Shown: positions 6,001 to 41,729 of the stretch, in pieces
How positions within the stretch are numbered: position 1 is the first letter of the stretch
Layout of the letters: the number at the start of each line of letters is the position of its first letter
Assembly (NCBI GenBank): GCA_904063045.1
Contig: CAJFCJ010000100.1
Location: 47,228 to 89,611 of the forward strand
Reading direction: 5' to 3'
From: Dimorphilus gyrociliatus
Taxonomy: Eukaryota > Animalia > Annelida
Length of the DNA: 42,384 bases
Program-made: the position numbers and the translations under genes
The notes under the pieces: generated by a model
What the model saw: only the letters and a program-made list of their open reading frames with translations
Told to the model about the DNA's origin: nothing
The model's database searches: none

Positions 6001-8344
6001 AATAATTAAGCTTTAATACTTCAAGATTATGAAGATTATTTATAATAATAGAAGTTATTTCCTTCCAGATTCATTTTTGAAGATTGAATGGCAAAGGCAT
6101 AATTCAGTTAACTCTCTAAAACGTTCCAATAAAATTAGAGACGCTTTGTCGAAAACGATTCCATCACATTTTGACAGTTTTATTTTTTGAATATTTTTGG
6201 AAAGTATCATTTTCAACAGTATCTCAATATCATTTTCGGTTGAATCTGTTCAAAAAAAAATGAATAGATTACAAACAAGCAAAACAAACTAATACAAACA
6301 TTTTACCTTTTATTACATTTTTGGAAAAATTAATTTCACTTAAATTATTACATTCAATTTGAGTATCGTTGGAAAGAAATAATGATAAAAAATTGGAATT
6401 TTTCACTGTCAGATGCCTGAGAGGTTTCGATTCAAACTGTATTAACGATTGGTTATCATTTTTGAATAGAATGTTGGAAAAATTTAAATAATTTAGTTTG
6501 TTAAAATTGTTGAAAATAATTTGAAAATATTCAACATTCACCGAATTTTTTACTCCACCAGTTATGATTAATTTTTGAAGACAATTGTTCAAACTAACTT
6601 GAATTGTGCTAATAAAATCTTCAAATATTATATTGACCTGAGTAAACTCTATCATAGTAATATTGCTAGACGTATACTCAATTATAAAACTGAGCCACGA
6701 CTTTGGTAGTCGAGTAGCATTTAGACGAAGAAATGGATTTGCATAGTTATAATTTTGTAGAAGGTCAAGGACATTTCTATCCATATCCAATTTGCCTATA
6801 ATATGTTTATTGCTTTTCATAATTAATGAAAAAATTATATTATCCATCTCTTGGAGAAACGTAAAGACATTTTGCATAATAATGATATTTTTTGAATTTT
6901 TTAATGCTTCGTTGATGGCTGATTTATGAATATCGAAATTGGACTTATATTTGTAAAGAATATGGAGAGCTGTTAAATATTCTTGGAATGAAGAATGAAT
7001 AAATTTTAATAGTTGATTACTTTCTGAAGGAATTAGAATACCACCAAAATATTTAGACTCTTCCACAAAATGCGTCTTTTTTATTGGTTGATTGAAAAAG
7101 AGATTTTGATAGGCTGCTTCTGAACAGTAGCTTAGTAGCTCTTCCTGTTGATCAATATTTAATCTATTCTTTTTGAATAGTATTTGAATAAATTCCCTGT
7201 AGATGTCATTTAATTTTAAACCTTTCATCTCTGATCTCTTCTCTTCCCAAATCACTGCAATTAATGTTGCGAAAAGAGGATTATGGCAAGTTTGAAAGAG
7301 AAAATCTCCTTCAGCTTTCAAAAAGTCCATTAATTCTTCAGATTTGAAACTTTTCAAAATTACTTCATCCGCTTTGCAGTATGAACTGTCTTTTGATTCA
7401 TTTTTTAAATCTTCCAGACTCTCTTCCCTGAAGAAATTCTGTAAAAATTGTTTTAGAATATTATCATCAAACTCTGGAATTTCAAAGATAAAATCGTAAG
7501 TTTCTCTAATATCTTGAACTTTAGATTTTCTTGACCAAACTATGATTGGAAAATCTATGAATCCTTTAAAAGATAGAATTTTATTCAATTCAGTATCTTC
7601 AAGCCTTAGTTCATCAGCGCCGTCGAAGAGTAGGATAATCTTTCTCTTAGGATTTCTACAATCTTTTGACAAGTAATAGTCAAAAAGTTGTCTAGATATT
7701 CGTGTATCATATTTAACATTCTGTGAGAATAGTTCATCGTGAAAACTGGTATAGTGGCTTATTTCATTCAATCTAGTGAATATAAGTGTGGAGTCTTGAA
7801 GAAAATTATCCTCAGTTGCCCACATGTATAAAATTCTCATGAAATGATGAGTCTTTCCTATACCAGCGTTACCCTGAATAAGAATTCTGTCCTGTTTATT
7901 ACCAATTACCTTAACAAATTCAAGGTCTTCATATGTATGACTCTTATCATATCTTTCCTTCCTGGAAATGAGACAAACTGGTATAGTATAATCTTTAAAA
8001 TTCACAAATTTTCTTTTTTCAGCCAAGAATGAATATTGAAGAATTGTTTCAAATTCTTTTTTGACTAGCTTTTTTATCTCGTGTTGAAAACATTCCCAAC
8101 AATTTTCAATTGCTTTTAAAAGACATTCACTTTCATAAGAAGTTTCATGTTCTTTTAATAGTTTTATAAATATTTCAGTTGGTAATTTTGAAACATATCG
8201 TTCAAAGACACAATCAGCTCCATAAACATCTCCAGATTCAGAAATGATGCACTTTTGGTAAAGAAGAACCCGGAAGAGGAAATTATTACTCAAAAATGTT
8301 GTTATAGCATCTCTTTGAAAAATTATCTCTGCATTTTCTTCCAT
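1..8344 (-). CDS. NLR-family immune receptor (CARD-like death fold + NACHT + very long LRR region), 3' end runs off the window, one apparent 1-bp frameshift near 6070
   Basis: Exon 1 (8344-6307) has Walker A ILIQGNAGIGKT, Walker B IILLFDGADEL and FIHSSFQEYLTA. A 61-bp GT-AG intron follows at 6306-6246. Exon 2 reads DSTENDIEILL..., stops at 6057-6055, and continues in a shifted frame (IWKEITSIIINNLHNLEVLKLNY). I spot-checked that frame as open at 5282, 4442, 542-720 and 2-60; the ORF track lists no minus-strand ORF there, consistent with no stop before the window edge. The N-terminus IIFQRDAITTFLSNNFLFRVLLYQKCIIS resembles CARD helices (inference). Confidence 0.92.
61..4380 (-). repeat. Tandem 171-bp coding repeat = 57-aa ribonuclease-inhibitor-type paired LRRs, 26 units
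   Basis: A TTGATTTTCCAAC-like anchor recurs at 229, 400, 571, 742, 913, 1084 and so on to 4333 with exact 171-bp spacing (168 bp to the copy at 61). Example unit: CSNLTELYLSECGFDESIGPIIGEAIGANPFLEQINLQRNNFGPEVGKSIFFNIKKH. Confidence 0.95.
6246..6306 (-). other. 61-bp spliceosomal intron of the NLR gene
   Basis: Minus strand reads AAAAG|GTAAAAT...TTTTTTTTTGAACAG|ATTCA. The phase-1 junction restores a reading frame (G+AT = Asp). Confidence 0.85.
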
Positions 8345-8979
8345 ATTAAATAAATATAAAATGGAATTTTTATCTGCAAAGATAACAAATTGATGAAATA
8401 GATCTACTTAAACGTGTGAATGATTTATCCCAATAAAATAAACACAATCATTCGGAGACATTAAATGGGTAGTTATATAGAAAGCTCATCAAGAATCCAA
8501 AAAATTCTACTTAACAATCAGATATGACGAGTAATAAAATAATATTGATATGACTTAGTATCATATAGATATTCATTACTGGCTGCAATAGGCCTATTCT
8601 AGTAGTTAAAAATTTTTTCAATAAAAAGGAATAAAGAGGAGGGAAGATAGAAGTTTTACCTGATGATAAATTCTACTACATTTCTGTATTGCTCATAGCC
8701 GTTTAAAACTCAAAGAATTATAGCAATCATATTACACTATTTCGAAAAATAGTCTTTAAAAATGATTATAATGAGCACCTGTTGCTTGACAGCTTTCTAC
8801 TATTATGCCATGTAGAGGGCGTTGTAATCATCAGCAATTTATATTGTACATTATTATATTCCTTTTAAAGTGAAGTAGGCTTAAAAACCATATTATATTA
8901 CAGATATTCAGATTAGCAGATGTTAAAGTCCATTTTAAAAAACAAACTGCTTTCACAGTTGGAAGACAAATAATTTTAG

Positions 8980-9578
8980 TGTACAACTTTGGTTATATTT
9001 AACATGGTTGAACTCTATTATTTGATGCAACTTATACATGTACATCTTAAAACCTATGCAAGAAAATGCTATAACATTGGCCAAACATAAGTCTGATTAG
9101 TCAGCTTCAAGGCTCATCTTTAATTACCAATAAAGGTGTGGCCAAGTTATAATTCAATTAACCTTCCTAAATGTTCAACCTTGTAACATCCTGTTACTAA
9201 ACATAAATATGAACTACACATTTCGGCAACTGTAAAGTGATGATTGGATGTCAGAGGCAAACCTCAAAGTATATAAATCCTCACTATTCTCATTTGGCAT
9301 GCAGCTTCCATCTGGACCCAAGGACCTGGGAAAATCATCTGGAAACAACCTCCACTGGAACCATCCATCTACTCCTCAACATTAGAAGACAGTTTGGTAA
9401 TTTGGCAACCTGCTTTTATGAACTATCTACTCTGCTATTGAACTCTCATATTGTTACTTGCTTAAGTATTATTATTGCGAATAAACCATTTTAATTTAAA
9501 CATTTGTTTAAAGGTTCGAGTAGAACCAGTATTGTTACAACTTGCAAATGCATAGATTTTGCCAGCAACAGCAGTACA
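8980..9578 (+). mobile_element. Solo LTR, type A (599 bp)
   Basis: TGTAC...GTACA termini, 4-bp TSD TTAG (8976-8979 and 9579-9582), TATATAAA near 9270, near-identical inverted copy at 23334-23968. Confidence 0.92.
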
Positions 9579-9699: not shown

Positions 9700-10398
9700 T
9701 GTATAATGTATGAATGCTTTGAAACATGTCACAATTCAGGATTCTTAGCTCAAGATACAATCACCACAACAATCTCATTTATCTAGCTCCATGTGTTAGA
9801 CATTACATTTGAACCAAGCTTTGTGTATTTTCCTGCTGAGGTTGTAGGTAAGTACTGGTCCAAATAGAACCAAACCAGGAGTAAGCCACTTAGAAGAGAG
9901 ATGTAGAATTGATGAAGGATGAATATAGAACCAAACTGTAAGAATAATATAACTGTATTCTAAAGTAATACTAGACCTTTTCACTAAGGGAGTTGATTCA
10001 GGACTGAATGCCTGTTACTGCCTACGCCCTGCTTTTATACAATTCCTTATCAGTTGTTTATGCCTTGGCTGTCAACAACAAGGGTCTAACCCCAGATAAG
10101 GATTGTTCACAACAAACAGGTTCAAGGGTTATCATATTATGCAATAGTGATGTAAACAACAACAACTTTGTGTAGGTTACCCGTCAAGGGTCAATTCTTA
10201 CATCATATTTATGTCAATAAACACTTGTTGTTGTTGTCAACATGTTTGTTATGTAACATCTTATCCTTTGCCTATAAAAGGGGTTGATTCTGGCAGTTGC
10301 ATACCATGTACTCTAGAGGCAACATCTACTTTAACACTTTTACCATATAGTAAGTATCATTTATAAAATATCTATAAACTATAGTTCATAAGTGTACA
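9700..10398 (-). repeat. 3' LTR of Gypsy element 1 (outer boundary near 9700 uncertain)
   Basis: Begins TGTACAC at 10398, just after a polypurine tract (AAGGAGAGAAG, 10411-10401). Contains GTATAAAAG near 10035. Shares TTCTATTTGGACCAGTACTT and CAAAGCTTGG(G)TTCA motifs with the other LTRs in the window. Confidence 0.7.
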
Positions 10399-10533
10399 GA
10401 CTTCTCTCCTTAAAGCATCATTCCACTGATGGTTCAACATTGGCAATAATAACTTGACCTTTCCTGCTACTGACAACTCTTAAGGGTTGGCCTTCCTCAA
10501 TGGATTTGATGTCATTTGTTTTTCTGAATCTGT

Positions 10534-11913
10534 TTAGTATTCTTTGATGTAAGTCCAAATATTTCCTTTGTTATAAAGCTTCTGCCCAGAGTAAGCTTTC
10601 TTCTCTTGATACATCTTTCTGCATTCTTCTTCTGACAATGTAACAATGAATTTTTCAACTCTGTGCTTCTTTGAACCAAAAAAATAATAAGTGTAGAAGT
10701 TCTCTCTCTTCCTCACCATGCATTTTACTGCTTCAACCTCTAAATCAGCTGTGTTTATTTCATAGACATTGGCTAATATTTTGGTCATAGGTTGGTTGTA
10801 TACTTGACATTCAGGTTGATCTGCTAAATCAAATGCTTGCTGTAGTTGCTGTCCATTGCAGTATTGAATAGGAGGTACAAATTCTAAAGTGATGTTAGCA
10901 CCAGTTGTGAATTGGTTTGCCATTGTCAATGGTAGTAGCATAAATATCATCATGATAAGAGGTGTTATCTCTCTAATTGGAAATAACCTTGATGGTTTTC
11001 TCCTATTTTCTGTATCAACATGATTAACTGTCTCATCTCTTGCTTGGTTATTAGCCAATCTTAATCTTGTTGCATGATAATATCTTCTTTTGCCATCTTC
11101 CAATTCCACTTCATACAAACATTTGGTTGCATCTGCAGCTGTTATCTTATATGGTCCATTCCATTTAAAGCTTGGTATCCTTTCCATACTTCTGTGAATA
11201 TCTTCTCTCCTAATATGTACCCAATCATCAACACTATAGGTTGGAGGTTTTCTGGTCAGGGTTTTGTTAATTCTATCCCTGTATTCCTTCTTCTTTATTA
11301 CTGATTTACATAGTGCAGTTGTCCTTAATTTGTCCATGTCTTGCTTTCTATCAAATAAGAATTTGGTTGTTGGCTCAATTCTTGGAATTGTTAGCAATGT
11401 ATCCAACATGTTTTGATTTCTAAGCCCATAAAGTAATTCATGAGGGGTTTTTCCTGTACTTCCAACTGGAATTTGGTTGAGGCAGCTTTGAATAATTGGT
11501 AACTGCTTCACCCAATTAGTATACCCTTCTATTACCAGTAACTTATGTAGTGCTCTTCTTACTTCCAAGTTTCTTCTTTCTATTATGCCATTGCTTTGGC
11601 TATGAAAGGCTGTAGTTTTGATTTTCCTTACACCCAGGGATGTGACAAGCTCAACAAATGTCTCGCTTAGGAAGTTTCTTCCTTGATCAGTTAACACTTC
11701 CTCTGGTAAACCAAAATTAGGAAAATTGTCATAAAACAAGTGTTTTAGTATCTCTTCTGAAGTTTGTCCCTTAAGAGGATACAGATTTGTAAATCTTGAC
11801 ATGTGATCTACAATAACCAAAATGTGCTTGAATGTGTTATGTCCATTAAGAGGTCCAATAATATCTATGGCAATTCTTTGTAGAGGTTCAACAGGATGTG
11901 GTGTTTCTATCAA
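10534..11913 (-). CDS. Integrase core and C-terminus fused in frame to the N-terminal part of env (remnant)
   Basis: The 459-aa ORF runs from the DDE integrase through WNGPYKI into a hydrophobic signal-like segment (ITPLIMMIFMLLPLTMA) and a Cys-containing ectodomain start with no stop codon. Confidence 0.88.
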   Translation of the reverse strand: MIETPHPVEPLQRIAIDIIGPLNGHNTFKHILVIVDHMSRFTNLYPLKGQTSEEILKHLFYDNFPNFGLPEEVLTDQGRNFLSETFVELVTSLGVRKIKTTAFHSQSNGIIERRNLEVRRALHKLLVIEGYTNWVKQLPIIQSCLNQIPVGSTGKTPHELLYGLRNQNMLDTLLTIPRIEPTTKFLFDRKQDMDKLRTTALCKSVIKKKEYRDRINKTLTRKPPTYSVDDWVHIRREDIHRSMERIPSFKWNGPYKITAADATKCLYEVELEDGKRRYYHATRLRLANNQARDETVNHVDTENRRKPSRLFPIREITPLIMMIFMLLPLTMANQFTTGANITLEFVPPIQYCNGQQLQQAFDLADQPECQVYNQPMTKILANVYEINTADLEVEAVKCMVRKRENFYTYYFFGSKKHRVEKFIVTLSEEECRKMYQEKKAYSGQKLYNKGNIWTYIKEY

Positions 11914-12588
11914 TTCATCAATTCATGCCTATGGCTTGGTGCTCTTAGTTGTTCACATACTTCGCACTGATGTAGATGATTTTTAATATTAGTTTTCAAT
12001 TTTGGGTGCCAGAATGCATATTCCCAAGTTCATATAGTGGTATCAATGCCATAATGTCTGAATAAGGGATGCCCATGCATCTGCTCAAATAGCTTTGTTT
12101 GTGATTCAATTGGTAGGATTAGAAGAGGTTGGGTCCCATCCAAGTACCATACCAAGTCATCTCTTATCAGCATCTTTTCCAAATGATCAGCATATTCACC
12201 CATTTCTGCATTTGAAATTTCTAAACCTTCTAATTTATCTACTACTTTCATCAGTTCCAAATCTTTAGCTTGTTCTTGTGGAAAATTCATTGTGATTTCA
12301 GCAGCTTCATTTTCATTGCCATTCGCATTTTTGTCATTACTATCTATATCCTCAAACTCTTCTGCATCTGGGAAATTACATGAAATTATGTCTTTTCTTT
12401 GCATAAGTTGTGTTGCAGACTCTTCAGCCTTCTCTTCCAATAACTCCTTCTTCAATAAATCTTGAAAGCTTACTTGGGGTTTTCCTTCACCAATTCTGGA
12501 TATCCAGTCAGCTCTGTTGTTCCTACCAGGTATGTATATTATCTCAAATTCCATATCCATAAGTGCCATTACCCATTTTACTGGGTGA
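11914..12588 (-). pseudogene. Gypsy pol remnant: RNase H C-terminus, acidic linker and HHCC zinc finger
   Basis: In-frame TGA at 12030, then TWEYAFWHPKLKTNIKNHLHQCEVCEQL. An 8-bp tandem duplication (ATCAATTC, 11909-11924) shifts the frame. Confidence 0.85.
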
Positions 12589-12589
12589 C

Positions 12590-14498
12590 AGGTGAAACCG
12601 TACCTGAGTGAAATTGTACCCATTGAGGGTGAAATCGTACCCATTGTGGGTGAAATCGTACCCAGGTGAAATCGTACCCATTGGTGGTGAATCTCTTGCT
12701 GTGACCAAGTAAAACTGTTATTGTTGATTCATATAGAAATGAAAAAAATATGATAATGTATGTATTGAAGAGGTATTATTCTATAAGTTAACTAAAGAAA
12801 AGAATAGATAATAGCAACTATGGAGTATAAATATAAGATGTCTGGATTAATAATTCATCAGCTAATATCCTTCCAAGCTTATAATCATCCCAGATTTCAA
12901 ATATTTTCTTCTCTATATCACCATATTTTTTTCTCTGATATTTGATAATCTTCTTCTCAGAGAGAAGTTTTTCATAAATACAAACCAAATCAGCCTCTCT
13001 TTTCAATTCATCAATCAACAAATAGAATGATCCTTTTGATTGTACTTTATTATTCATTCTATTGTGCCATCCTTCCATTAGTCCTTATTGATAATCCAAA
13101 TATTGACCAATTCAATGGTTTCCAAGTAGAATTCAAAATCCAAGTATTTTCATAATATTCCAGCAAGTCTGAAAATTTTCTCTTTTCTTCCAGCTGACTC
13201 TTCAAGCTAAAAAATGTTGAATGTTCCATCTATAAACCAATGATTTGATTTACCAAGTAAATCAAGCTGATGATTTGTGGCAAAAATCAAGATTCTATTG
13301 TTGTTTTCATAAATGTTGTCTTTTAAGAAATCATCAGGAATGAAATTCTTATTTAAATCAAAGTCCACTTCTTTTGGTTCATTAGGCCTAAGTTTCTGTC
13401 TGGTAAAATTTGCAACTCTTTTCAAATAGTCAATATTTGGCAGAGTCAGTTTGTTCTTGATGTTTCAACAGATCTGTTTCTGCTAATCTTCTTCCACTTG
13501 AATATGTGTCAGTTAGGCACATATCCCTTAAATCTTTCCTGATTGGTATATTGGATGATAAACTTTGATTGGCTCCATGAATGTGTTTTTTGCTTCCCTT
13601 TATAAATGAATTTCCTTGTTGGTGAATTCTTGCAGGACATCTCTGCTTTTTAGTTCTTTTACTGCACACCCAAATGCTACTTTTAGAAGTTTTAGCCTTG
13701 AGTGTGAATGAAAATCCATTGTGTATCAGAATGTCCTTTCCCAGTTGACTTCCACCACTGATTATTTGAAAATCATTATCCATAACTTCTTGGAAAGTGT
13801 CAACAGCATTGACTGATGATATTTCATCATTATTTGTATAAGAATCTCTAAGATCATCACCTTTTCTGTTATCTGTTGTCTCTTCATCAATCTTTTCATC
13901 TTCATTCTCATCCATTGCAACTCTTTCTTTCATTCCTTGATCTTCTAGTCTTGTCATTTGAAGAAGACACTGTCTTTTTTCACAATCCAGACAAACTGAC
14001 AGCCTGGAATCTGAAAGGAAGTAATTGTATATTTACAATTGACCAGATGAATTACAAAATTCTTACTGATGATACATTTTTCATGAAGAAGCTCATTACA
14101 TAGCAAACAGAATTTTCTCTTCTGTCTTCCATAAACTGTAAGTTTGCAATTTTTGCACTTGATTGCCATATTTCAAAATGTGCAGATTTGAAATGTTTAA
14201 TTTATTATTTGAAAAGCAGCAGAAAACTTTGAAACAAATATTTATAATACTATTTCAAGATTCTCTTATCAAGTAATCAACAAACAAATTCAAAATGGCT
14301 GACCTGAAAAAAACTGGTACTTGTATATCACATATTTGTTAAAACAAATAAATTAATTATTTCATTTTTTGATTTTCTCATGTTGACAGTTAAAATTTCA
14401 TCCAGGTACGATTTCACCCACAATGGGTACGATTTCACCCTCAATGGGTACGGTTTCACCCTCAATGGGTATGGTTTCACCCAGGTACGGTTTCACCC
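12590..14498 (-). mobile_element. Mutator-like DNA transposon 1 (MULE), internally deleted, with tandem-repeat TIRs
   Basis: Inverted arrays of GGGTGAAATCGTACCC(ATT) units at 12591-12690 and 14401-14497. Internal PHD-like, FLYWCH and MULE fragments (WFIDGTF; EGWHNRMN). No TSD found. Confidence 0.9.
12818..14169 (-). pseudogene. PHD-like + FLYWCH + MULE transposase with most of the DDE core deleted
   Basis: Exon 1 (14169-14067), a 56-bp intron (14066-14011), then SRLSVCLDCEKR in frame with ORF 13430-13957 (FLYWCH: IHNGFSF...WVC...CPARI...HIH). The VVDFE and CxFH motifs are missing between DGTF and EGWH. Confidence 0.85.
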
Positions 14499-14612: not shown

Positions 14613-15060
14613 TGTACTTGAATAAGACAGATGTGTTATGTGGCAACATATGTTGGCCATATAGCCTTTATTTGGGGATTATGTTTTTGTGACATCATAC
14701 ATTGTTTTTATGTTTTTGTGACATATGTAATCTTTTGATAAATTGAACCCAAGCTTTGGGAAATGTATAAAAGGAAATACATTTCACCAGTTTGGCAGTT
14801 CAGTTCTTTAATGGTTAACTGGTTGTTTAAACTTGCTAATTTAGAACTAGAAACTCATTTACTCAATACATATTCTTTAAATGAAATACTGGCATTTTGT
14901 TGATTAATTTCTACCGAAATTACATTTATTAAGATTACTTGTGGACGAACTTGAAAGGTTCTATTGTGTGAGTACTTGGGCAGATTGGTAAATGATTGGA
15001 AAGGACAAATACTGTTCAGAAGAAACAGGAATTCCTACAATTACAATACAACAAAGTACA
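14613..15060 (+). mobile_element. LTR copy, type B (5' boundary uncertain, 14540-14613)
   Basis: TGTATAAAAGGAAA TATA near 14765, strong similarity to the reverse complement of 17423-17800, and an ending CAAAGTACA at 15060. There is a weak possible AAATC TSD if the start is 14540. Confidence 0.75.
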
Positions 15061-15324
15061 AAATCTCTTTTTGAATTGTTTAAATTCAATTTCTTCATCT
15101 TTTCTTGAGTTTTCAAAGAAAATTCCAGCTCTTTTAGCCAATTTAATGTATTGTAACCAATTTATCATACTTCAAAATTTAACTTTTGTCAAAAAACTTA
15201 AAGTTTAAATTTAAAAATACTTGCTTTGTTAAAATGTTTTAATCTTAGATATTTGGATAATTCATTTTCAGATATTCAATTATAATCTAAAAAATTAAAT
15301 ATATTAAAAATATTGAAGTGAATT

Positions 15325-16116
15325 TTTACTTTGTTGTATCATGATCGTAGGAATTACATTTGCATCCCAACTGTATTTGTCTGTACCACTCATTTAATAT
15401 TACGCCAAAGTACTGATCTGAATAGAACCTCAAGTTCATCCACAAGTATCAGCAAATGAATGATATTCGTCCAAAGTTTTATATCAAACTTTCAACAAAA
15501 ATCCAGTATTTTAAGATATGTATTGAATATTCTGAGCTTTTATCTCTAAGCAAGCTGTTAGAAAACTAAGCTAACAACTGTTAAATTCTAAGGGTTTATA
15601 TACTTTCCAAAAAGTTTAACAGTTTACAATTTCAAAGTTTCAGCAATGCAAAGTAACATTTTAACACAGTTGAAAGTTCTAAAAATGGTTTTTCCTTTAA
15701 TTGATTCCATTCATTATGAGTAATTAGGTCAGATAAATTTAGGTGGTCAGCTTCTTACATAAGATGTAACAATTTTGGTAATGGTCAATTCAACCATTGA
15801 AAGTGAAAATTTGGAACTGGTCCAAAAGTCAACAATAGTTGAGTTTGACCATTTGATACTCTTTAACTGGCGGCTAAATAAATGTTCTTAAGTGATTAAA
15901 GTAAGACTAATGTAGTTCTATAGTTAATGCTAAATTCGTTGCATTTGTTTGCAAGAATTTTATATGCTCATGTGCTTACCTGCATTGCGGCATATATGTA
16001 TAATAGAATTGTGCGTATCCAGCGCACAATGCTATTGTTAAGTATTTATATTAAATAGTATTGAATACAAGTCTATGGTTTTCTAACAGAGCATCTATAT
16101 CGAACTGAAGTGCACC
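15325..16116 (-). mobile_element. Degenerate solo LTR, type C (792 bp)
   Basis: 5-bp TSD GAATT (15320-15324 and 16117-16121), termini each with one mismatch to TGT...ACA, GTATATAAACCC-type TATA near 15600, similarity to 32631-33583 and 40792-41729. Confidence 0.78.
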
Positions 16117-16223: not shown

Positions 16224-17284
16224 TTATTCACCTGAATTATTAACTAAATCATCGACATCAATTACTATTGGCTCATGTGCTAGAGTTTTAGTTATGTGTT
16301 TAAAAAGTTCCATCAATTGTTTAAATCCAACTTCTGTCTGGTTGAAACTAGTCCAATCTAAACAATATTGTACTTGTAAGATATTTTTTGCTCCATACAG
16401 ATATTCACCACCATACAATTGGTATTCAGTCTTAAATAATTCTTTACTAACACACTACAAGTAGTCTCAATAAAATGACTCTTTATTTAGTAAAACAGGT
16501 TTTCCACCTGTAAAATAGGCCAATTGGAAAAATTCCTTACAATACGCCCATTGCAAATCTTTATTAATCCACTTTCCATATTATGGTGCAGTGACATTTA
16601 TGACCAGGACATTTCGGCCCAGGACAGTTCGGCCCACTTTTGGACATTTCAGCCCATTTGGGACATTTTGGCCCATTTGGGACATTTTGGCCCATTTTAT
16701 GACTTTTTGAGTTAATTATGAGTTAAATACAATAAATAAGAAAAAGTAAATCAATTTTAAAATTAATAAAAAATATAATAAGTAATATAATTTGGTAATT
16801 CCAGATATGTAAAATAATTATTATAAAATTCAAAATATTTTCAGAATAATGGATACCAGTTTTCCTTATTTCTGAATTATATTTTACATTGTTTTACAAT
16901 TTCCTTTTCCTGTTTTGAGAAAAAGTAGAAAGCATATTTCTTTTCTTCATTTATCATAGAAGCTTCAATAGAAATTACATGAATTTGAAAAACTGTTGGA
17001 AGTGTGGATTAAGATTTCATTGGAGACAAAGAGAAATTTTTTTTGTTTTTATAAAAAATATCTTCTCCTCCTTCACCAATAATAATATGAAATTTGTCTG
17101 AGTCTTCAGTATTCTCATTTTTTTCAGGTTCATTTGCATGCAATAAGTTTTCCTCCATATTACAAGTATTATTAACTTCATCAAGACTATAATTGTTTTT
17201 AACCATGTTATTAAGAGTACAACTCAGTGCAGCTTTTACAGTGGGATCATCATTGATCACATCTGATAAACTATTATCTGTCAC
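16224..17284 (-). pseudogene. Unidentified decayed coding relic, interrupted by a TIR-type repeat array
   Basis: Co-oriented protein-like ORF pieces at 17284-17009, about 17000-16860, about 16580-16470 and 16418-16224 with stops and frameshifts. No family recognised. Confidence 0.35.
16591..16710. repeat. Orphan tandem array GGACATTT(C/T)GGCCCA, MULE TIR-like
   Basis: About 6 units of 15-19 bp with the same design as the MULE TIR arrays; no partner end found. Confidence 0.65.
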
Positions 17285-17422
17285 TCACACTTTTGCATGA
17301 AGAACACTTATCAACTATCATATCTGTAATATTAAGCAAAGTTAAGTAAATGTATGTTTTTATGTAGTAAATATCACCTTTACAGTTATGATGTGAAAGT
17401 GAAAAAGCAATTTCTTCAATCC

Positions 17423-18165
17423 TGTACTGCGTTGTACTGTAATTGTAGGAATCTCGAGTTCGTTATGATTGAATTTGTCCTCACCAATCATTTACCAATA
17501 AACCAAAGTACTGGTCCAAATAGGACCTTTCAAGTTTGTCCCACAGGTAGTCTCAATGAATGCAATTCTGGCAAAAATTAATCAATGAACCACCAGTATT
17601 TTGTGCAAAGAGTATGTATTGAGTTTCTAGTTCTAAATTAGCAAGTTTAAACAACCAGTTAACCATTAAGAACTGAACTGACAAACTGAGGAAATGCATT
17701 TCCTTTTATACATTTACCAAAGCTTGGGTTCACTTGGTCAAAAGATTATGAAGTTGAAATGTAACAGTCTCACAATGCACATATAACAAAGACATGAAAA
17801 ACTATTGCATCACTTCTGGCTAACATGTGTCACAGCAAAAACAAGCCTGCCTCTTTGGCATCTGTTTTTGAATAAGATGTAACAAGTTTGACATGCATTT
17901 TTTCTATATTTTTGTTCCATTGTTAATTCTATAATGCAACATCTGTTTGGTCAAAGAATATGTTTCCTACGAAATAAAAGCCTTTTTAAAGTTCTAGGCT
18001 CTATTTCTACTAAATAAATATCTTTCTAAACTTCCACCATTATAATTTCTATGAAAAAACACTTTCTAAACTTCCACCATTATAATTGCTACGAAATAAA
18101 AGCCTTTCTAAAGTTCTATAATATCTAAGTCTATATATTATTATGTTGATGTTTCTAAGTGCACA
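17423..18165 (-). repeat. 3' LTR of Gypsy element 2, type B (743 bp)
   Basis: TG...CA termini, PPT adjacent, TATAAAAGGAAA near 17705, and ~40-bp tandem subrepeats in U3 (17970-18120). Confidence 0.88.
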
Positions 18166-18179
18166 GATATCCTACCCTT

Positions 18180-20634
18180 TTAAGACCTTGCTTCCATGAA
18201 AGGTCTGGGACTTGTCACAATGACTCTGTTATCTTCTTTCTTAAAAGTTAGGTAGTTTTGAAGAGGTATTGCTTCTTGGTCAATTTCTAAAGTTGAGTAT
18301 GTTGGGACTTGTAGTTCCTCTTGTTGAATATCTGAAGCTGTGGGTTGGGTTTTCTTTCTTTCCAAGTATTTCCAAAGTCTTTTCCAAGTAAGTTATTAAA
18401 TTTTCTTTTGTAAGCCAACCATAGTATGAATGCAATGCCAATAATTATTGTTGGAAAGGCAATGTTAATTAGCATTTTGGTTGGGGTTTTTAGCCATGAT
18501 GAAAGTAAATGTTGCTGTGTGGACATACTTGAGTCAATTCCTAATTTATTAGCAAAGTTGATATGCTTGTTATGCCTTGTTAAAGTGTCTTGTATATAGT
18601 CAATGACTTGTTGGAACTGTTGGTGTTTTTTGCCAACATCATCTTTTATCCCTAATTGCAGTAACTCAGTGAGCCTTGCAACCTCCAGTTTTGGTTCTTC
18701 AATTTCATTGTTGATTTTCATTCTGATTGACCTGGAAGCAGCTGTTTGGAATTTACAACCATTCTTTGTATAATAGATAAAAGTTTTCCTTCCAGAAGAT
18801 AGGCCATTCTGATTTCTTTCAGCATCCAAAGGGTTCTTTTTTATTTTAAAGAGATATTGTGTGTGGTCACATTCCCCATATCTTTTATCTTCTTTTGTTA
18901 TGTGGTAGGCATGGTGTAGGATTGGATCAATTGAAAATAGAAGTCCTTTATACTTGATGAGGAATTGTTTAGAACACAATCCATTTTTGCTTATGATTCC
19001 AATATCACATATGACTTGAACTGATTTTAGTTCTGTGCATGTGTTCAGTGTTGTTAGATCGCCCAGCCAAGTGCTGTGAGTTCCTTGTGTTGGATCCAAT
19101 ATTGTTGGGAGTTGGGGTGCCAAAGGTGTAAGCAATGCCATCATCTTATTTCTCATAATAAGCTCCTTGCATAAAAGTAGTGAAACTTGTTTGAAAACTG
19201 TTTGCAAGTTCTGAAAATTTTTGTCAATGTTATTCAGCAAGGCTGAAGTTCTTACAGCATCTTGTATGTCCATTTTCCTGAGTTTTGATTTCTCAAAGGT
19301 ATTCTCTTTTCTGTTTGCTGTTATGAACTGATGCTCTCTTGGTGTTCTTTGCAATAGAGAAAATTTTCCTTTTGTCTTCAATGTTTTCAATTGACTCTTT
19401 TTAGGACTTTGATACCATACATCCAATTTTGGTAATGGATTGAAAGTAACAAATTTTTGATTCAGGTCAAAATCCTCAGCCAATGAAATCTTAGCTCTAT
19501 CCCTATATGTCTGATTGAACATATTCAGAATATAGATATTGTCAATATCCCATATGTTTGGCAAAATAATTTTCTTCAAGATATATGTTCTAACCAATGG
19601 TGTCAGATGAGTTTTTATCAGCATATGGTATGTTTTATCACCATCTCTGTACCAATCATTATAGGTTAATATGTTTTCCATTTCAGTTTTGTTTGCTTTC
19701 TTCAAAAATGATTTTTTATCTGAGTAGTTTTCTAGTCTTTCAACTTCTTCATTGGAAGCTATTTGGTATTTAGCTTCTTCTGATTTTCTGTTATCTGCAA
19801 AATTTGATTGTGTTAAGTCTGTTCTCAGAAGGTCATATTCTTTCTGAGGTACCAATACTCTTGTTCCAGGACCACCATAGCCTCTTATATATCTATCTTC
19901 ATATGAAAGATCCATTATAGCAAAGTTTGGGCATGAAAAATATCCTCCAAGTATTACACATTCAATGTTTTTTGCCACAATTTTCCAAGGTGAGGTATGA
20001 CCAAGAAGGTGTTGCCCTTCTTTTTGATTGAATATTATGATTGAATCCAGTGTTCTACAGAATCTTTGTTTTATAGGACAGTCTTCCATATATTCCAGAT
20101 TGGTAGTTATTTTGTCTTGACCAGGCTGCCAGTAAGCTTTACCAATTTGTAATATTGTTGTGAATTCTTCAATAATTGTTGTTCTTGGCCATTTGTAATA
20201 TTGTCCTTTGTTTTCATGAAACACCAAATGTTTTCCTTTCTGAATGAGCTTTTGTCCATTTAGAGTTCTCTTAAGACTAAGCATTTTTCTACACTGCTTT
20301 TCAGTCAAGGTAAGTGTATCTTTTTCAATTCTGTGCTTCTTTGCTCCAAAAAGTAATATGTGTAAAAGTTGATTCTTCTTTTAAGCATACACTTGACTGC
20401 TTGAATTGCCAGTTTGTCAGCTTTTATTTCATAAATATTTGCCATTATTTTGGTCATTTGTTGAGTTTCAAAGGTGCATACTGGTTCATCAGCCAAGTCA
20501 TATGACTGGTGTACTTGTTGCCCCTGACAGAATTGTACTGGTGGTAGCATTCTTACAGTGATGTTTGCTTTGGTGGATGATGTGTCACCATGTACTATAC
20601 TCAAGCAGCATAAAGCTATCAAGGTGCAAACCAT
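18180..20634 (-). CDS. env: env-like class III viral fusion glycoprotein (~800 aa), split by a 1-bp frameshift near 20340 and probably another near 18365
   Basis: Signal peptide MVCTLIALCCLSIVHG and a C-terminal TM segment MLINIAFPTIIIGIAFILWLAY followed by KRK. Adding one T in TTTTT near 20345 gives YYFFGAKKHRIEK, matching element 1. Cys and aromatic patterns resemble VSV G and herpes gB (manual comparison from memory). Confidence 0.85.
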
Positions 20635-21099
20635 TCATCCTCTGATAGGTAGTGTTCCACCATTTCTTGTCTTATTTTCCAAACCAACAGAATTAACTTT
20701 TATTGATTGTTTATTTGCTAGTCTGAGTCTGCTAGCATAAAATTTTCTTTTGTCTGCCAATATTTCCAATTCATACAAACATTTTGTAGTATCAGTTGCA
20801 GTTACAAGGTATGGTCCACTCCATTTGCTTGTATTTATTCTGTTCATTGCTTGTCAAAAGTGTTCATTTTTTATGTGAATCCAATCACCTATTTTATAAG
20901 TTGGTGGTTTTCTTGTGATAGTTTTATTAACTCTATCTCTGTATTCCTTCTTTTTCAAAGCAGATGTACAAAGTGCTGTAGCTCTGATTTCTTCCATTTC
21001 ATGTTTTCTGTCAAATAGGAATTTTGTTGTTGGTTCTAATCTTGGTATTTCCATTAATAAGTCTAACACATTTCTATTCTTCAATCCAAATAATATTTC
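20635..21099 (-). pseudogene. Integrase C-terminal fragment of Gypsy element 2
   Basis: IPRLEPTTKFLFDRK...WIHIKNE then ...KWSGPYLVTATDTTKCLYELE, homologous to ORF 10534-11913, with a frameshift near 20850. Confidence 0.88.
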
Positions 21100-21585
21100 G
21101 GTTTATGGAGAAAACGTCCACAAGAGAAAATGTCCACAGGAGAAAATGTCCACAAGAGAAAACATCCACAAGAGAAAATGTCCACAGGAGAAAATGTCCA
21201 CAGAGGAAAATATCCACAGGAGAAATGTCCACAGTGGAAAAAGTCTATAGGGGAAAATGGCCATGGAAATTAAAATTAATAATGTATGTACATTGTAGTG
21301 ATAATAAAAATTATGCAATGTCAGGTTCTCCATTTTGTTGAGGAACTATTTCCTGTTTATGATTTCCTGTTTTTGTTCCATACAAAGGAGAGTTTGATTC
21401 AAATATTATCTGAAAAGGATATTACACAAGTACAACACAATATCAAAAAAATTCAATACACCAGAATATCTCTTGATAATTCTTTTAAATTGAATCAGTT
21501 TAAGGTAAAACTTTAATTAATAAAATCTCTTTTAAAATATTTGAGCAGCCATTTTGGGATAACTTTCTCTTTTTACTGATAGATA

Positions 21586-24221
21586 ATGGCATATTGCTAC
21601 AATTGTAAGGAGAAAATGGTTGGAAGACAGCATAAAGCAAAGTGTCAACTATGTCACCATTGGGTAATAATTCACAAGAAATGCATGAAAAGTAGGTTAA
21701 ATTCAATTTTATAGCATATATCATTTTTTAAATGATTGTATTAACAGAAAATCATCTCTTTCTTTGCAATATTTGTGAAGATATTTCTAAGAGAACATGT
21801 TTGGTCACCTTACAACAGCTGTCTACTAGTCAAATCAAAACAGTGAACTCTGAAGTGGAAAAGGAAGTTGAGATGACATATGAAGTTCAAAATACTATGA
21901 ATGATGTGTTGGTAATGGTCCAGATATTTATGAAAATGAAAAAGAAAGTGATAGAAATATGAGAACAGATGTTGATGATAATGATGTTATTGTTCAAAAC
22001 AACAGCACAGATCTAATGATTGGGTGTAACATTGAAATCACAACAGAAAATCATTCACAGGATTCAAATAATTTGATGGAAACTTCTTTCATAAATTCTC
22101 CAACATCAAAAAGAGTAGATATGGAGCCAACTTTCAAAATTCTGAAAGGAATGAGTCAAAAAGGTAAAGACCTATTAGCCTATGATGGTTATATGTTTAC
22201 AATAAAGATGAAAAGGTCAACAAAAACATTTTGGACATGTAGTGTAAGGAATAAGAACAACAAATGCCCAGCAAGTGTCAATCAATTGGAAGATCAATTC
22301 TATCCTGGAAAAAACCCCATTCCCATAAAAGAGAAGATGGACTGGAAAAGAAAATTTTAATTAAAAATGAAATTAAACAATTGCGCAAAATTGAAACTTT
22401 CTCTTCTGGAAAACCTTAGCTGAGGAAGTATTAAAACATCATTGTGATTGTGAAGAAGCTATTCCATCAATGGATAACTGTGCCAGGTTGGCAAATTGGA
22501 CAAAAAGATTTCAGCCAGAAGAGCTGGCAGATATTCACTCAAATTTTGAAATATCATTTATACCAGATGAGTTTCTGGTAAAAGATATTAAAATGAAAGA
22601 TGACAGAATAATAATTTTTTCAACTCCAAAACAAATTGAACTACTGTCTAAAGGAAAGATATGGTTTTGGATGGAACATTTAAATGTGTCAGAGACCCAT
22701 TTTACCAATTGTTCACAGTTCATGGGTTCATCAAAAAACATGGAGAAATGAAACAAGTTCCATTACTGTTTGCATTTATGGGATCGAAGAAAAAGACAGC
22801 TTATAAGAAATTATTTCAGGTATACATACTTTTAATTTCAATTTTTTTAAGTATTAAAATTCTTAAAAAAAGTCCATAAAGGAGCTGACCAATCAACATT
22901 TCCCAATGAAATTTGTGGTGGATTTTGAAAAAGGTATCTGGAGAGCATTGTCATCTGTTTATCCTGAGGTTATAATTAAAGGATGTGTCTTTCACTGGAC
23001 CCAATCTGTATATAGGAAAATTCTGGTAACTTTTATCATCATCTGTTGCAAAAAAATTAAGAAATGTAATAATTTTAGGAATTGGGCTACTCTTGTGAAT
23101 ATAAGGCAAAAGGAGAGTGTTACCATGCAATGAAAAAAATAATGGCATTACCATTTTTGCCATCAAACATCATTGAAAATGCATTCAAAAACATTGAACA
23201 GACAACCTCAACTCATTTAGGACCATTTATTGATTACATCAAGAACCAGTGGCTATATGGATATTACCCACCACATACCTGGTCAATATATGGTGAAGCA
23301 ATCAGAACCAAGAATGACCTGGAAGGATGGCACTGTACTGCTATTGCTGGCAAAATCTATGAGTTTGCAAGTTATAACAATACTGGTTCTACTCGAACCT
23401 TTAAACAAATGTTTAAATTAAAACGGTTTATTCGCAATAATAATACTTAAGCAAGTAACAATATGAGAGTTTGATAGCAGAGTAGATAGTTCGTAAAAGC
23501 AGGTTGCCAAATTACCAAACTGTCTTCCAATGTGGAGGAGTAGATGGATGGTTCCAGTGGAGGTTGTTTCCAGATGATTTTCCCAGGTCCTTGGGTCCAG
23601 ATGGAAGCTGCATGCCAAATGAGAATAGTGAAGATTTATATACTTTGAGGTTTGTCTCTGACATCCAATCATCACTTTACAGTTGCCGAAATGTGTAGTT
23701 CATATTTATGTTTAGTAACAGGATGTTACAAGGTTCAACATTTAGGAAGGTTAATTGAATTATAACTTGGCCACACCCTAGGCAAGTTAATTAAATTATA
23801 ACTTGGCCAAACCTTTATTGGTAATTAAAGATGAGCCTTCAAGCTGACTAATCAGACTTATGTTTGGCCAATGTTATAGCATTTTCTTGCGTAGGTTTTA
23901 AGATGTACATGTATATGTTGCATAAAATAATAGAGTTCAAGCATGTAAAATATAACCAAAGTTGTACAGCACAATAGATTAAACAGGAATATCCATGCCA
24001 ATTCTTCATTGTATGTTATCATTGATGAATTAAAGAGAGAAGCAGAGTTGATTACATTGTACAAGAAATTATTAAGTGAGAAAAAGATATGTAGACAACA
24101 GAGAAAGCCTTATCAGAAAATTCAAAGTCAGATCTTTGGCTTATGGGAGCAATTTGAGGTCAGATTAATATCTGCATCAGATTTATTGGAAAAGGCAGCC
24201 AGCATTTATATTGCATCATAA
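21586..24221 (+). pseudogene. Spliced PHD-like/FLYWCH/MULE transposase, frameshifted and interrupted by a solo LTR
   Basis: ATG at 21586 (MAYCYNCKEK...). Introns at 21692-21747, 22820-22872 and 23026-23078. Motifs LDGTF, VVDFE, CVFHW and NDLEGWH|NRLNR (split by the LTR). Stop at 24221. Confidence 0.9.
23334..23968 (-). mobile_element. Solo LTR, type A (635 bp), inserted in the MULE 2 transposase
   Basis: TGTAC...GTACA termini and TSD GCAC (23330-23333 and 23969-23972). Removing it restores LEGWHNRLNRN. It is 36 bp longer than the 8980 copy because of an extra repeat unit near 23760-23810. Confidence 0.95.
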
Positions 24222-36143: not shown

Positions 36144-36861
36144 TGATTGTCAAATGAGAAAAATTCTTTAGGACTTTCTGCTTCTTCAGAACAGTATTCA
36201 TCCCTTCCAATCATTTATCAACTTACCAAAGTACTCAAACAAATAGAACCTTTCAAATTCGTCCACAAATAGTCTTAACAAATGTCATTTCATTAGAAAT
36301 TAATCAACAAAATACCAGTATTTCGTCCAAAGAATATGTATTGAGTAAATGAGTTTCTAGTTCTAAACAAGTAAGTTTAAACAACCAGTTAACCATTAAA
36401 AAACTGAACTGACAAGCTGGAGAAAAGCATTTCCTTTTATACATTTCCAAAGCTTGGGTTCAAGTGGTCAAAGGATTACAAAGTTGAAATGTAACAATCT
36501 CATAATTCTCATGTAACAAAAATCTGAAAGACTGTTATTTAACAGTAAAACCCTGTTTATTATTTACATATAAAATATAATCCTAAGATTAGGGCCACAT
36601 GCCAGACATGTGCCACAGTAAACAGGCCTGTCTCATCAGCATCTGGTGTTTGAATCAGCATCTGGTGTTTGACCTGCTTGTTTTCCTTGTTCTTTGTTCG
36701 TTTGTTAATTCCCAAGTAGCCAACATCTGTTACAGTCAAAGAGTCTATTTCTTAGGAAATAGAGTTCTTTCTAGCAATTTTGTAATATAAAATAAGATAT
36801 TCTGAAGGTCAGATTTCGAGTAAAAGATTCATCTTAATCAACCTAATCTCAGCAAAGCACA
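36144..36861 (-). mobile_element. Degenerate solo LTR, type B (~718 bp)
   Basis: Colinear with 17423-18000. TATAAAAG at 36441-36434. Possible TSD TATCC/TACCC (4/5); ends are degenerate. Confidence 0.75.
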
Positions 36862-37942: not shown

Positions 37943-38027
37943 ATGGGTACAGTTTTACTAAAAAAGTGGTACAATTTCACCTGGGTACAGTTTCACTTGG
38001 GTACATTTTCACCCAGGTACAGTTTCA
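37943..38027. repeat. Orphan TIR remnant of the MULE 1 family
   Basis: About 5 units of GGTACA(G/A/T)TTTCACC, similar to 14401-14497. Confidence 0.7.
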
Positions 38028-40791: not shown

Positions 40792-41729
40792 TGTACACAT
40801 ACATTCGTCAGCTATATTCTAAACAATAGAGAAAGTAGTATTGAACCAGTATTGTATATGCAGATAGCACTGATAAAGATAAGCAGTAGTGACCTAGTTT
40901 TCGCATAGGGCAGTGCATACACATTATGCAGCAATAAAACCTATTGAATTATATAAAGAATATTTGCTATTTGCAACCTAGCATTAATATTACAATTTAT
41001 TAATCCATACATTTATGATTTCCAACTAAAACTAGTTCAATTAATTATCAATTATGCTTAAATTCTAAGTTTAGATTATATTCACTATTCAACAGTATTG
41101 TATACACAATACTGTTCTTTTTAACATGCATTAATCAGATATACTTCCTCCTTATATGCTGATGCTAAATTTACTAACTCAATCAATTCAATATCATTAT
41201 TAAGTAGAATATAAAAACGGTCAAATATACAATCTACATGTTTTCTTGATTGTTGGACTTGTCCTACTAAAATTGTTACATCTTATGCAACTCTCCAACC
41301 TTCGAAATTCAACTATTATTTAGAAGAGGAAAACAATAAAAACATGACCATATTTAGAACTTTTCTTTGTCTTCAAATGTTACTTTTGTTTTTGTGAACA
41401 TTGAAATTTGTGAACTATCAACCCTTAAAAAGAGTATATAAACCCTACGAAATTAACAGTTGATAGTTCAGTTTTCTAACTGTCAGCTAGTTGTTTAAAC
41501 TAGCTTGTTTAGAACTAGAAGCTCATTTTACTCAATACATATTCTTTGGACGAAATACTGGTGTTTTGTTAATCAATTTCTACCGAAATTGCCTTTGTTA
41601 GACTATTTGTGGACGAACTTTAAAGGTTCTATTTGGACCAGTACTTTGGCAAGTTGGTAAATGATTGGAAAGGACGATTACAGTTGTGACGAACCAGAAA
41701 TTCCTACAATTACAATACAACAAAGTACA
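40792..41729 (+). mobile_element. Solo LTR, type C (938 bp)
   Basis: TGTACAC...CAAAGTACA termini, 5-bp TSD AAATT (40787-40791 and 41730-41734), GTATATAAACCC TATA near 41435. Confidence 0.88.

What the first reader, a model, noticed from the sequence alone, without database searches (positions are those of the whole stretch)
18180..20634. Gypsy retroelements carrying a class III viral fusogen: a candidate invertebrate endogenous retrovirus lineage
Env reads AVKCMLKRRINFYTYYFFGAKKHRIEKDTLTLTEKQC, matching the VSV G first fusion-loop region (GWMCHASKW...RWYGPKYITHSIRSFTPSVEQC), with a second loop-like YKWPRTT. It later reads LCKELIMRNKMMALLTPLAP...HSTWLGDLTTLNTC, matching the herpes gB/chuvirus core helix region (WCELQ...KLNP...ARMLGDVMAVSTC). 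Signal peptide, TM anchor and cytoplasmic tail are present. The pol motifs are Ty3/Gypsy-type. Classical errantiviruses use a baculovirus F-like class I env, so this looks like an independent env capture. Two diverged families and many solo LTRs indicate repeated activity. The comparisons are from remembered sequences, not searches, and similar captures may already be described.
Basis: partly seen in the sequence, partly recalled or inferred. Interest (0 to 1): 0.9.

Follow-up and report, generated by a model that had tools for sequence, protein, structure and literature searches.

The report
Broken Gypsy retroelements with gB-like envelope
These are two damaged copies of a Gypsy-like jumping gene that carry a likely herpesvirus-gB-type membrane-fusion gene in the same reading frame as their integrase; the combination is real here, but this kind of element has already been catalogued across many animal groups.

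Summary
At 20634-18180 (minus strand) lies a broken envelope gene between an integrase tail and a purine tract plus 3' LTR. A second diverged copy (12590-10400) and two solo LTRs with perfect 5-bp target duplications are also present.

The envelope is probably a gB-type class III fusogen. Its cysteine gaps (17; 44, 21, 35) match HSV-1 gB (17; 44, 23, 37). Weak profile hits fall at the expected places: gB PF00606 E 0.022 (on homologue P0001) and rhabdovirus fusion domain PF00974 E 0.17 (on copy 2). No fold was obtained (pLDDT 32-34), so the class is inferred.

Chary and Hayashi (eLife 2026, PMC13524379) already list 221 HSV/gB-type entries among 1,512 env-carrying Ty3/gypsy elements, and argue for ancient origin rather than recent capture. 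This scan also noted the same kind of element on other DNA.

What is specific here is a divergent env with one database relative (42%), kept in frame with integrase and under purifying selection. No RT is present, so the lineage is unplaced. New member of a known kind.

The parts
18180..20634 (-). Copy 1 env gene, broken: frameshift near 20348-20350, inferred second shift near 18390; likely gB-type class III fusogen
20587..20634 (-). Signal-peptide-like hydrophobic segment (inferred from hydropathy)
20350..20586 (-). N piece of ectodomain: Cys pair 17 apart (gB tethering-loop-like) and start of the aromatic putative fusion loop 1
19037..19267 (-). Predicted long central helix with its Cys, and the Cys 44 residues later (gB domain III-like)
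   Evidence: (low-confidence models)
18416..18472 (-). Transmembrane anchor (hydropathy)
20638..21102 (-). Copy 1 integrase C-terminal remnant (GPY motif, one internal stop), same frame as the env N piece; ends upstream at a 16-bp minisatellite (21107-21263)
18166..18183 (-). Purine-rich tract (PPT-like) between env stop and LTR
17423..18165 (-). 3' LTR of copy 1 (743 bp, TG..CA, TATA-like motif)
   Evidence: a contig of run X3 begins to match at 18165
10421..12590 (-). Copy 2 (second family): RNase H end (motif recalled), H2C2 and rve integrase with breaks, reading without a stop into the env N-terminus; most of env deleted; tail remnant in another frame
9840..10416 (-). Copy 2 purine tract and 3' LTR (starts at 10398; 3' end not found, lower coordinate approximate)
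40792..41729 (+). Solo LTR, 938 bp, perfect 5-bp target-site duplication
32631..33583 (-). Solo LTR, 953 bp, perfect 5-bp target-site duplication
14726..15060 (+). LTR 3' fragment
15325..15800 (-). Diverged LTR fragment
36169..36800 (-). LTR fragment, shares two segments with the copy 1 LTR

Best explanation
The window holds decayed copies of two related LTR retrotransposon families, likely Ty3/gypsy, whose last gene is likely a gB-type (class III) membrane-fusion protein kept in the same reading frame as integrase. Shown: the order integrase-env-purine tract-LTR, TG..CA LTRs with target duplications, the shared frame, and purifying selection on env. Inferred mechanism in intact ancestors: Env would be made as the C-terminal part of a Pol-Env polyprotein, or from a spliced RNA. 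Its internal signal sequence would send the ~700-residue ectodomain into the ER, anchored by one TM helix. It would be tethered by two disulfides from the N-terminal loop to the central helix region, as in gB. On budding particles it would insert aromatic fusion loops into a neighbouring cell's membrane and refold, carrying the element between cells, plausibly soma to germline as for Drosophila gypsy. The copies here are broken and could not do this.
For: Anatomy.

Cysteine gaps: 17 in both copies' N pieces; 44/21/35 in copy 1 and P0001. HSV-1 gB pairs 116-573, 133-529 and 596-633 give 17; 44/23/37 (PMC13398477 passages). Random placement passed the quartet test 124 and 13 of 100,000 times, and the 17-gap 2.5% of the time.

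Profiles: P0001 205-305 hits PF00606 (E 0.022); the copy 2 N-terminus hits PF00974 (E 0.17). Atlas top hits for both proteins are PF24664 Monjiviricetes_fusion clusters (0.91, 0.92).

Selection: pN 0.24 vs pS 0.76 over 76 env codons.

Frame: GPY to the first env motif is 83 and 86 codons, with 1 and 0 stops. A deeper contig of run X1 crosses the junction gap-free and differs inside both the stop and the Met codon. A contig of X3 differs in length by 3 nt there (table 8).
Against: No fold: both AlphaFold jobs failed (pLDDT 32.1 and 34.2), and Foldseek gave nothing meaningful.

Profile support is thin: only 2 of 15 env-containing Pfam queries hit a class III family. Neither hit was on copy 1, both are far under the cut-offs, and unrelated families score alike (Tox-HNH-HHH 0.022, MBD 0.11, KGK 0.14). 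Atlas recognition was low (1303 and 1150, against 2300), and coronavirus spike and Baculo_F clusters scored 0.88-0.90. PDB sequence searches found no fusogen. The +-3 tolerance of the cysteine test was set after I had seen the data.

Gypsy assignment lacks RT, and the best PDB integrase hit is foamy virus (4.8e-27), not Ty3 (1.8e-10). Expression, particles and fusion are untested.
Confidence: 0.83

Rival explanations
1. The envelope is class III but an independent capture from a negative-strand RNA virus (rhabdovirus- or chuvirus-like G), separate from the catalogued HSV/gB-type errantivirus envelopes.
For: PF00974 rhabdovirus fusion-domain hit on the loop region. Atlas top clusters are Monjiviricetes/rhabdovirus glycoproteins. 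Only one relative among the candidates scored. The candidate second loop lies about 53 residues after the first, near the 46 of Mokola G (loops 74-77 and 121-122, PMC7082061). Chuvirus-like glycoproteins are known beside Gypsy fragments (PMC10084718 abstract).
Against: The ~700-residue ectodomain, 228-233 residues from central-helix Cys to TM, and the gB cysteine gaps fit gB-sized proteins, since VSV G domains are shorter (PMC7518877). Chary and Hayashi fold chuvirus-like env into their HSV/gB type, so even this origin stays within the published class.
Confidence: 0.1
2. Sub-mechanism rival: Env is made only from a spliced subgenomic RNA using an acceptor just before the signal sequence, and the shared frame with pol is incidental.
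For: Both copies have a pyrimidine-preceded YAG at the homologous site (20642, 10973), exactly 24 residues from a conserved PIR to the first ectodomain motif. Drosophila errantivirus env is spliced (bioRxiv 2023.08.03.551782 passages).
Against: The site is not uniquely strong: second-ranked tier of 24 YAGs in copy 1, and tied top of 38 in copy 2. Copy 2 has no pol stop before env, and the frame is kept in all four copies or contigs examined. The two routes can coexist.
Confidence: 0.35
3. The carrier is a BEL/Pao element, or another non-Gypsy LTR lineage; env-carrying BEL/Pao elements are known.
For: BEL/Pao elements with chuvirus-like glycoproteins exist (PMC7642597). RT is missing here. The best solved integrase match is foamy virus.
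Against: The Ty3 match extends over the core and C-terminal region (26-281). H2C2 PF17921 hit. The GPY motif and the RNase H end motif are Gypsy-like (recalled).
Confidence: 0.04
4. The ORF is a non-fusogenic membrane protein (captured host gene or unrelated), and the class III resemblance is chance.
For: No significant profile hit, no fold, and no PDB match.
Against: The cysteine pattern, hit positions, size, topology and env position all agree.
Confidence: 0.04

Closest known systems
HSV/gB-type env-carrying Ty3/gypsy 'errantiviruses' (Chary and Hayashi, eLife 2026, PMC13524379)
   Same: LTR element with integrase followed by a signal-ectodomain-TM env of gB-like size and cysteine layout; invertebrate-like host context. 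Their supplement labels some ORFs POL-ENV or GAG-POL-ENV, including a rotifer ENV_HSV element; I read these labels as fused ORFs.
   Different: Their entries are intact and these are broken. Membership of a catalogued family is untested: five env motifs gave 0 hits in 7 supplements and a sixth hit only a species name, but long cells are cut and the bait sequences are on GitHub. No furin consensus seen here (not always conserved in theirs).
Herpesvirus glycoprotein B (HSV-1 gB; PF00606)
   Same: Cysteine gaps 17 and 44 identical, 21/35 vs 23/37; long central helix followed by a beta-rich domain, a further helical arm and a TM (weak models 25, 98).
   Different: No significant sequence similarity (PDB phmmer negative); extra cysteines in the domain IV-like part; no partner glycoproteins seen in the window.
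Chuvirus/Monjiviricetes glycoproteins (PF24664) and the mosquito BEL/Pao 'Anakin' env (PMC7642597)
   Same: Top Atlas clusters; a class III env inside an LTR element.
   Different: No hmmscan hit to PF24664 in 15 queries; the carrier here looks Gypsy-like, not BEL/Pao.
Drosophila gypsy/ZAM errantiviruses (F-type env)
   Same: Gypsy-like backbone with env last, before the PPT and 3' LTR.
   Different: Their env is F-type and made from a spliced RNA; here the env is likely class III and in frame with integrase.

Membership tests
LTR retrotransposon | LTRs with TG..CA ends, PPT and target-site duplications | tested here: met
   3' LTRs after purine tracts; 2 solo LTRs with perfect 5-bp duplications; 5' LTR and PBS not found in the window
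Ty3/gypsy | Integrase (H2C2, DDE core, GPY/F tail) placed after RNase H | tested here: met
   the RNase H end rests on a recalled motif, with no Pfam hit
Ty3/gypsy | RT phylogeny or GyDB profile classification | not testable with these tools
   no RT seen in the window; no genome held; no related loci found
HSV/gB-type errantivirus | env with signal peptide, ectodomain and TM next to pol | tested here: met
   (hydropathy only)
HSV/gB-type errantivirus | Intact gag, pol and env ORFs | tested here: not met
   both copies are truncated and broken; this is the catalogue's inclusion rule, not a property of the lineage
Class III fusogen, gB type | Tethering and domain IV cysteine pattern | tested here: met
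   (spacing only; bonds inferred; tolerance set afterwards)
Class III fusogen, gB type | Five-domain fold with fusion hairpins and central coiled coil | tested here: inconclusive
   AlphaFold pLDDT 32-34; Foldseek uninformative
Class III fusogen | Significant profile match (PF00606, PF24664, PF00974) | tested here: inconclusive
   sub-threshold hits in 2 of 15 queries
Class III fusogen | Central-helix signatures of Vollmer 2020 (Cys; Lys-hydrophobic pair near the helix end, then a short helix) | tested here: inconclusive
   Cys present in both proteins; a Lys-hydrophobic pair occurs in both, but not in the same column
Class III fusogen | Membrane fusion activity | not testable with these tools
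   bench test
F-type errantivirus env | Furin site followed by a hydrophobic fusion peptide | tested here: not met
   no R-x-K/R-R and no internal hydrophobic segment besides the TM in copy 1 or P0001

The most novel reading that the evidence does not exclude
This is an uncatalogued, deeply diverged envelope lineage that joins a rhabdovirus-like fusion domain to a gB-like core. It was captured independently from a negative-strand RNA virus, and is expressed as an obligate Pol-Env polyprotein in a Gypsy element.
Probability: 0.15. Interest if true: 0.55.

Novelty: new member of a known kind. Interest (0 to 1): 0.27.

Why it matters
It adds a very divergent member to the known set of class III envelopes on Gypsy-like elements. 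If placed in the tree, it would bear on whether these envelopes share one Precambrian origin or were captured several times, and on how gB and rhabdovirus G are related. The conserved pol-env frame raises a testable question on how Env is expressed. The copies in this window are decayed, and the kind of element is published, so the gain is incremental.

Tried and rejected
Homologue searches: one hit, P0001 (42%, unnamed, singleton cluster). Only 7,999 candidates were scored. Longer (3,063 candidates) and shorter (553) searches gave none; proteins of 300-376 aa were covered by no search.

Locus searches: viral contigs and metagenome contigs gave no confirmed locus. The HMMER scan of 1.84 billion representatives never ran because the queue was full, so distant relatives remain unsearched.

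Structure: PDB sequence searches of env pieces were negative. Two AlphaFold jobs were unusable, and two Foldseek searches on them meaningless. Trimer prediction returned no verdict.

Other: NCBIfam gave nothing for env. No RNA holder listed. No tRNA genes. No genome held. Two cited papers were not held.

Rejected ideas: (1) My early doubt that the repeat family is an LTR, overturned by the target duplications. (2) My notebook line that other copies differ in length at both env breaks. Only the first break has a listed length difference (4 contigs of X1, 1 of X3). The rows at 18325-18327 come from one contig each, sum to three bases and lie past the inferred second break; 18 rows were not shown. 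(3) Two codon comparisons were out of frame and were redone. (4) Summed contig depth is not used as a copy number.

Full report
1. What is in the sequence. The minus strand at 20634-18180 carries an envelope-like gene in pieces: a 95-aa N piece and a 686-aa main piece in different frames, with the break near 20348-20350. A tail in a third frame ends at 18180, directly before a purine tract, as the tail of copy 2 does. I infer a second break near 18390 from this and from the tail's likeness to that of P0001. Hydropathy gives an N-terminal signal-like segment and one TM segment; there are four sequons and no furin consensus. Upstream, in the frame of the N piece, lies an integrase tail with a GPY motif and stops, ending at a minisatellite. 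Downstream lies a 743-bp TG..CA LTR.

2. Second family and LTRs. Copy 2 (12590-10400) has an H2C2 piece (PF17921, E 2.9e-4) and an rve core (E 4.3e-11). Its integrase frame runs without a stop into an env N-terminus 48% identical to copy 1 over 91 aa. Most of its env is deleted; a tail remnant, purine tract and LTR start remain. The copies are 68% identical over 794 nt. Two solo LTRs (40792-41729, 32631-33583) start and end with the same inverted 5-mer and have perfect 5-bp duplications (chance per fixed site 5e-3 and 4e-4); three more fragments exist. They share only their 3' part with copy 1's LTR, so they mark related subfamilies, not necessarily env-carrying ones. In run X1, 936 contigs lie on 17000-21500 (145, 233, 331 and 227 in the bands 99+, 95-99, 90-95 and under 90%). 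That count includes LTR and minisatellite matches; it fits a multicopy family but is no copy number. X1 may be the source sample.

3. Selection. Between copies 1 and 2, env shows pN 0.24 vs pS 0.76 over 76 codons, and 0.29 vs 0.61 over 38 codons past the break. The integrase tail shows 0.25 vs 0.66 over 153 codons. Env was therefore conserved about as strongly as integrase while the families diverged.

4. What kind of envelope. Sequence searches of the PDB found no fusogen. The protein collection gave one relative, P0001 (42%). Of 15 env-containing Pfam queries, two hit class III families, both weakly. P0001 205-305 matched PF00606 positions 3-105 (E 0.022), the central-helix region. The 131-aa copy 2 N-terminus matched PF00974 positions 16-53 (E 0.17), the aromatic loop; a 153-aa version of the same piece gave no hit, and unrelated families scored at similar levels. 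The Atlas put PF24664 clusters first for both proteins (0.91, 180 features; 0.92, 185), with low recognition, and with spike and Baculo_F clusters at 0.88-0.90. The strongest sign is cysteine spacing. HSV-1 gB has the pairs 116-573, 133-529 and 596-633 (PMC13398477), which give gaps of 17, and of 44, 23 and 37. The env has 17 in both copies, and 44, 21 and 35 in copy 1 and P0001. Random placement passed the quartet test 124 and 13 times in 100,000, and gave the exact 17-gap 2.5% of the time. The tolerance was chosen after seeing the data, and the two proteins are related, so they are not independent. Two AlphaFold models were unusable (pLDDT 32.1, 34.2). Their secondary structure shows a long helix, strands, then helices and the TM, the gB order, but carries little weight. 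Verdict: gB-type class III, inferred, about 0.85.

5. What kind of carrier. Integrase follows an RNase H end motif (recalled) and ends in a GPY tail. PDB hits are foamy virus integrase (4.8e-27) and then Ty3 (1.8e-10, the longest span); from my own knowledge, such foamy hits are usual for Gypsy integrases. Without RT the lineage cannot be placed.

6. How it would work. Pol and env share a frame in copy 1 (one stop just before the Met), in copy 2 (no stop), in a contig of X1 that is gap-free across the junction and differs inside both the stop and Met codons, and in a contig of X3 whose junction differs by three bases. Another X1 contig, close to this copy, has a 10-base gap there. I did not check those contigs for other stops. 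The stop looks private to copy 1, and a Pol-Env polyprotein with an internal signal sequence is the likelier product (about 0.65). A candidate splice acceptor at the homologous site in both copies, and spliced env in Drosophila errantiviruses, keep a spliced RNA possible. The later steps (ER entry, assembly on particles, loop insertion, refolding, cell-to-cell spread) follow from class III fusogens and Drosophila gypsy and are not shown here.

7. What is known. [quoted passage not shown] They argue for ancient acquisition. The words 'fused', 'single ORF', 'in-frame' and 'readthrough' do not occur in their main text, but supplement labels include POL-ENV and GAG-POL-ENV ORFs. Whether this family is among their entries is open (long cells are cut, figures and GitHub data not seen). 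I found the paper, before the scan's notes, which report the same kind of element in other genomes.

8. Papers seen. PMC13524379: abstract, sections 6 and 14 whole, part 1 of sections 4, 5 and 9, passages, searches of all 7 supplements, and parts 1-2 of file 5. PMC10084718: abstract. Passages only: PMC7642597, PMC13398477, PMC7518877, PMC4617298, PMC7082061, PMC2753318, PMC2288602 and bioRxiv 2023.08.03.551782. Malik 2000: only as cited. Searches for a rhabdovirus-type capture listed no paper whose title or abstract start reports one; that is three searches of an incomplete library.

9. Verdict. This is a new, divergent, decayed member of a published kind. Interest 0.27; the bolder reading (independent capture, hybrid-looking envelope, obligate polyprotein) has probability about 0.15.

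Noticed in passing
window 2-8407 (-): NLR-like gene: a NACHT ORF (PF05729, E 6e-14) followed by a 2,023-aa open frame with about 25 exact-period 171-nt LRR repeats.
   Followed up: partly
window 13430-14032 (-), 21905-23450 (+), 24689-25930 (+), 8980-9578, 23334-23968, 32002-32390: Decayed FLYWCH/MULE-type DNA transposon pieces; two are 91% identical in inverted orientation.
   Followed up: partly
window 21107-21263, 12608-12691, 14405-14498, 24413-24684, 16604-16709, 27084-27186, 37968-38027: 16-21-bp minisatellites, several beside the MULE-like pieces; both retroelement copies end upstream at one, which suggests truncation by later insertions.
   Followed up: no
window 38927-39304 (+): DNase I-like fragment (DNase gamma, E 2e-6).
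   Followed up: partly
window 27548-31971 (-): Run of short same-strand ORFs that looks like one decayed large gene, sacsin-like by recall; no Pfam support for the 3 pieces scanned.
   Followed up: no
window 34909-35859 (-): 316-aa ORF, fucosyltransferase-like by recall; no Pfam or PDB hit.
   Followed up: partly
window 18003-18116, 26226-26329, 27257-27344: A 40-42-bp tandem repeat inside the copy 1 LTR recurs at two other places without LTR ends.
   Followed up: no
window 14936-15448: Two LTR fragments face each other as an inverted pair about 260 bp apart.
   Followed up: no
window 12480-12170 (-): Acidic linker of about 100 residues between the RNase H end motif and the integrase zinc finger of copy 2.
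   Followed up: no
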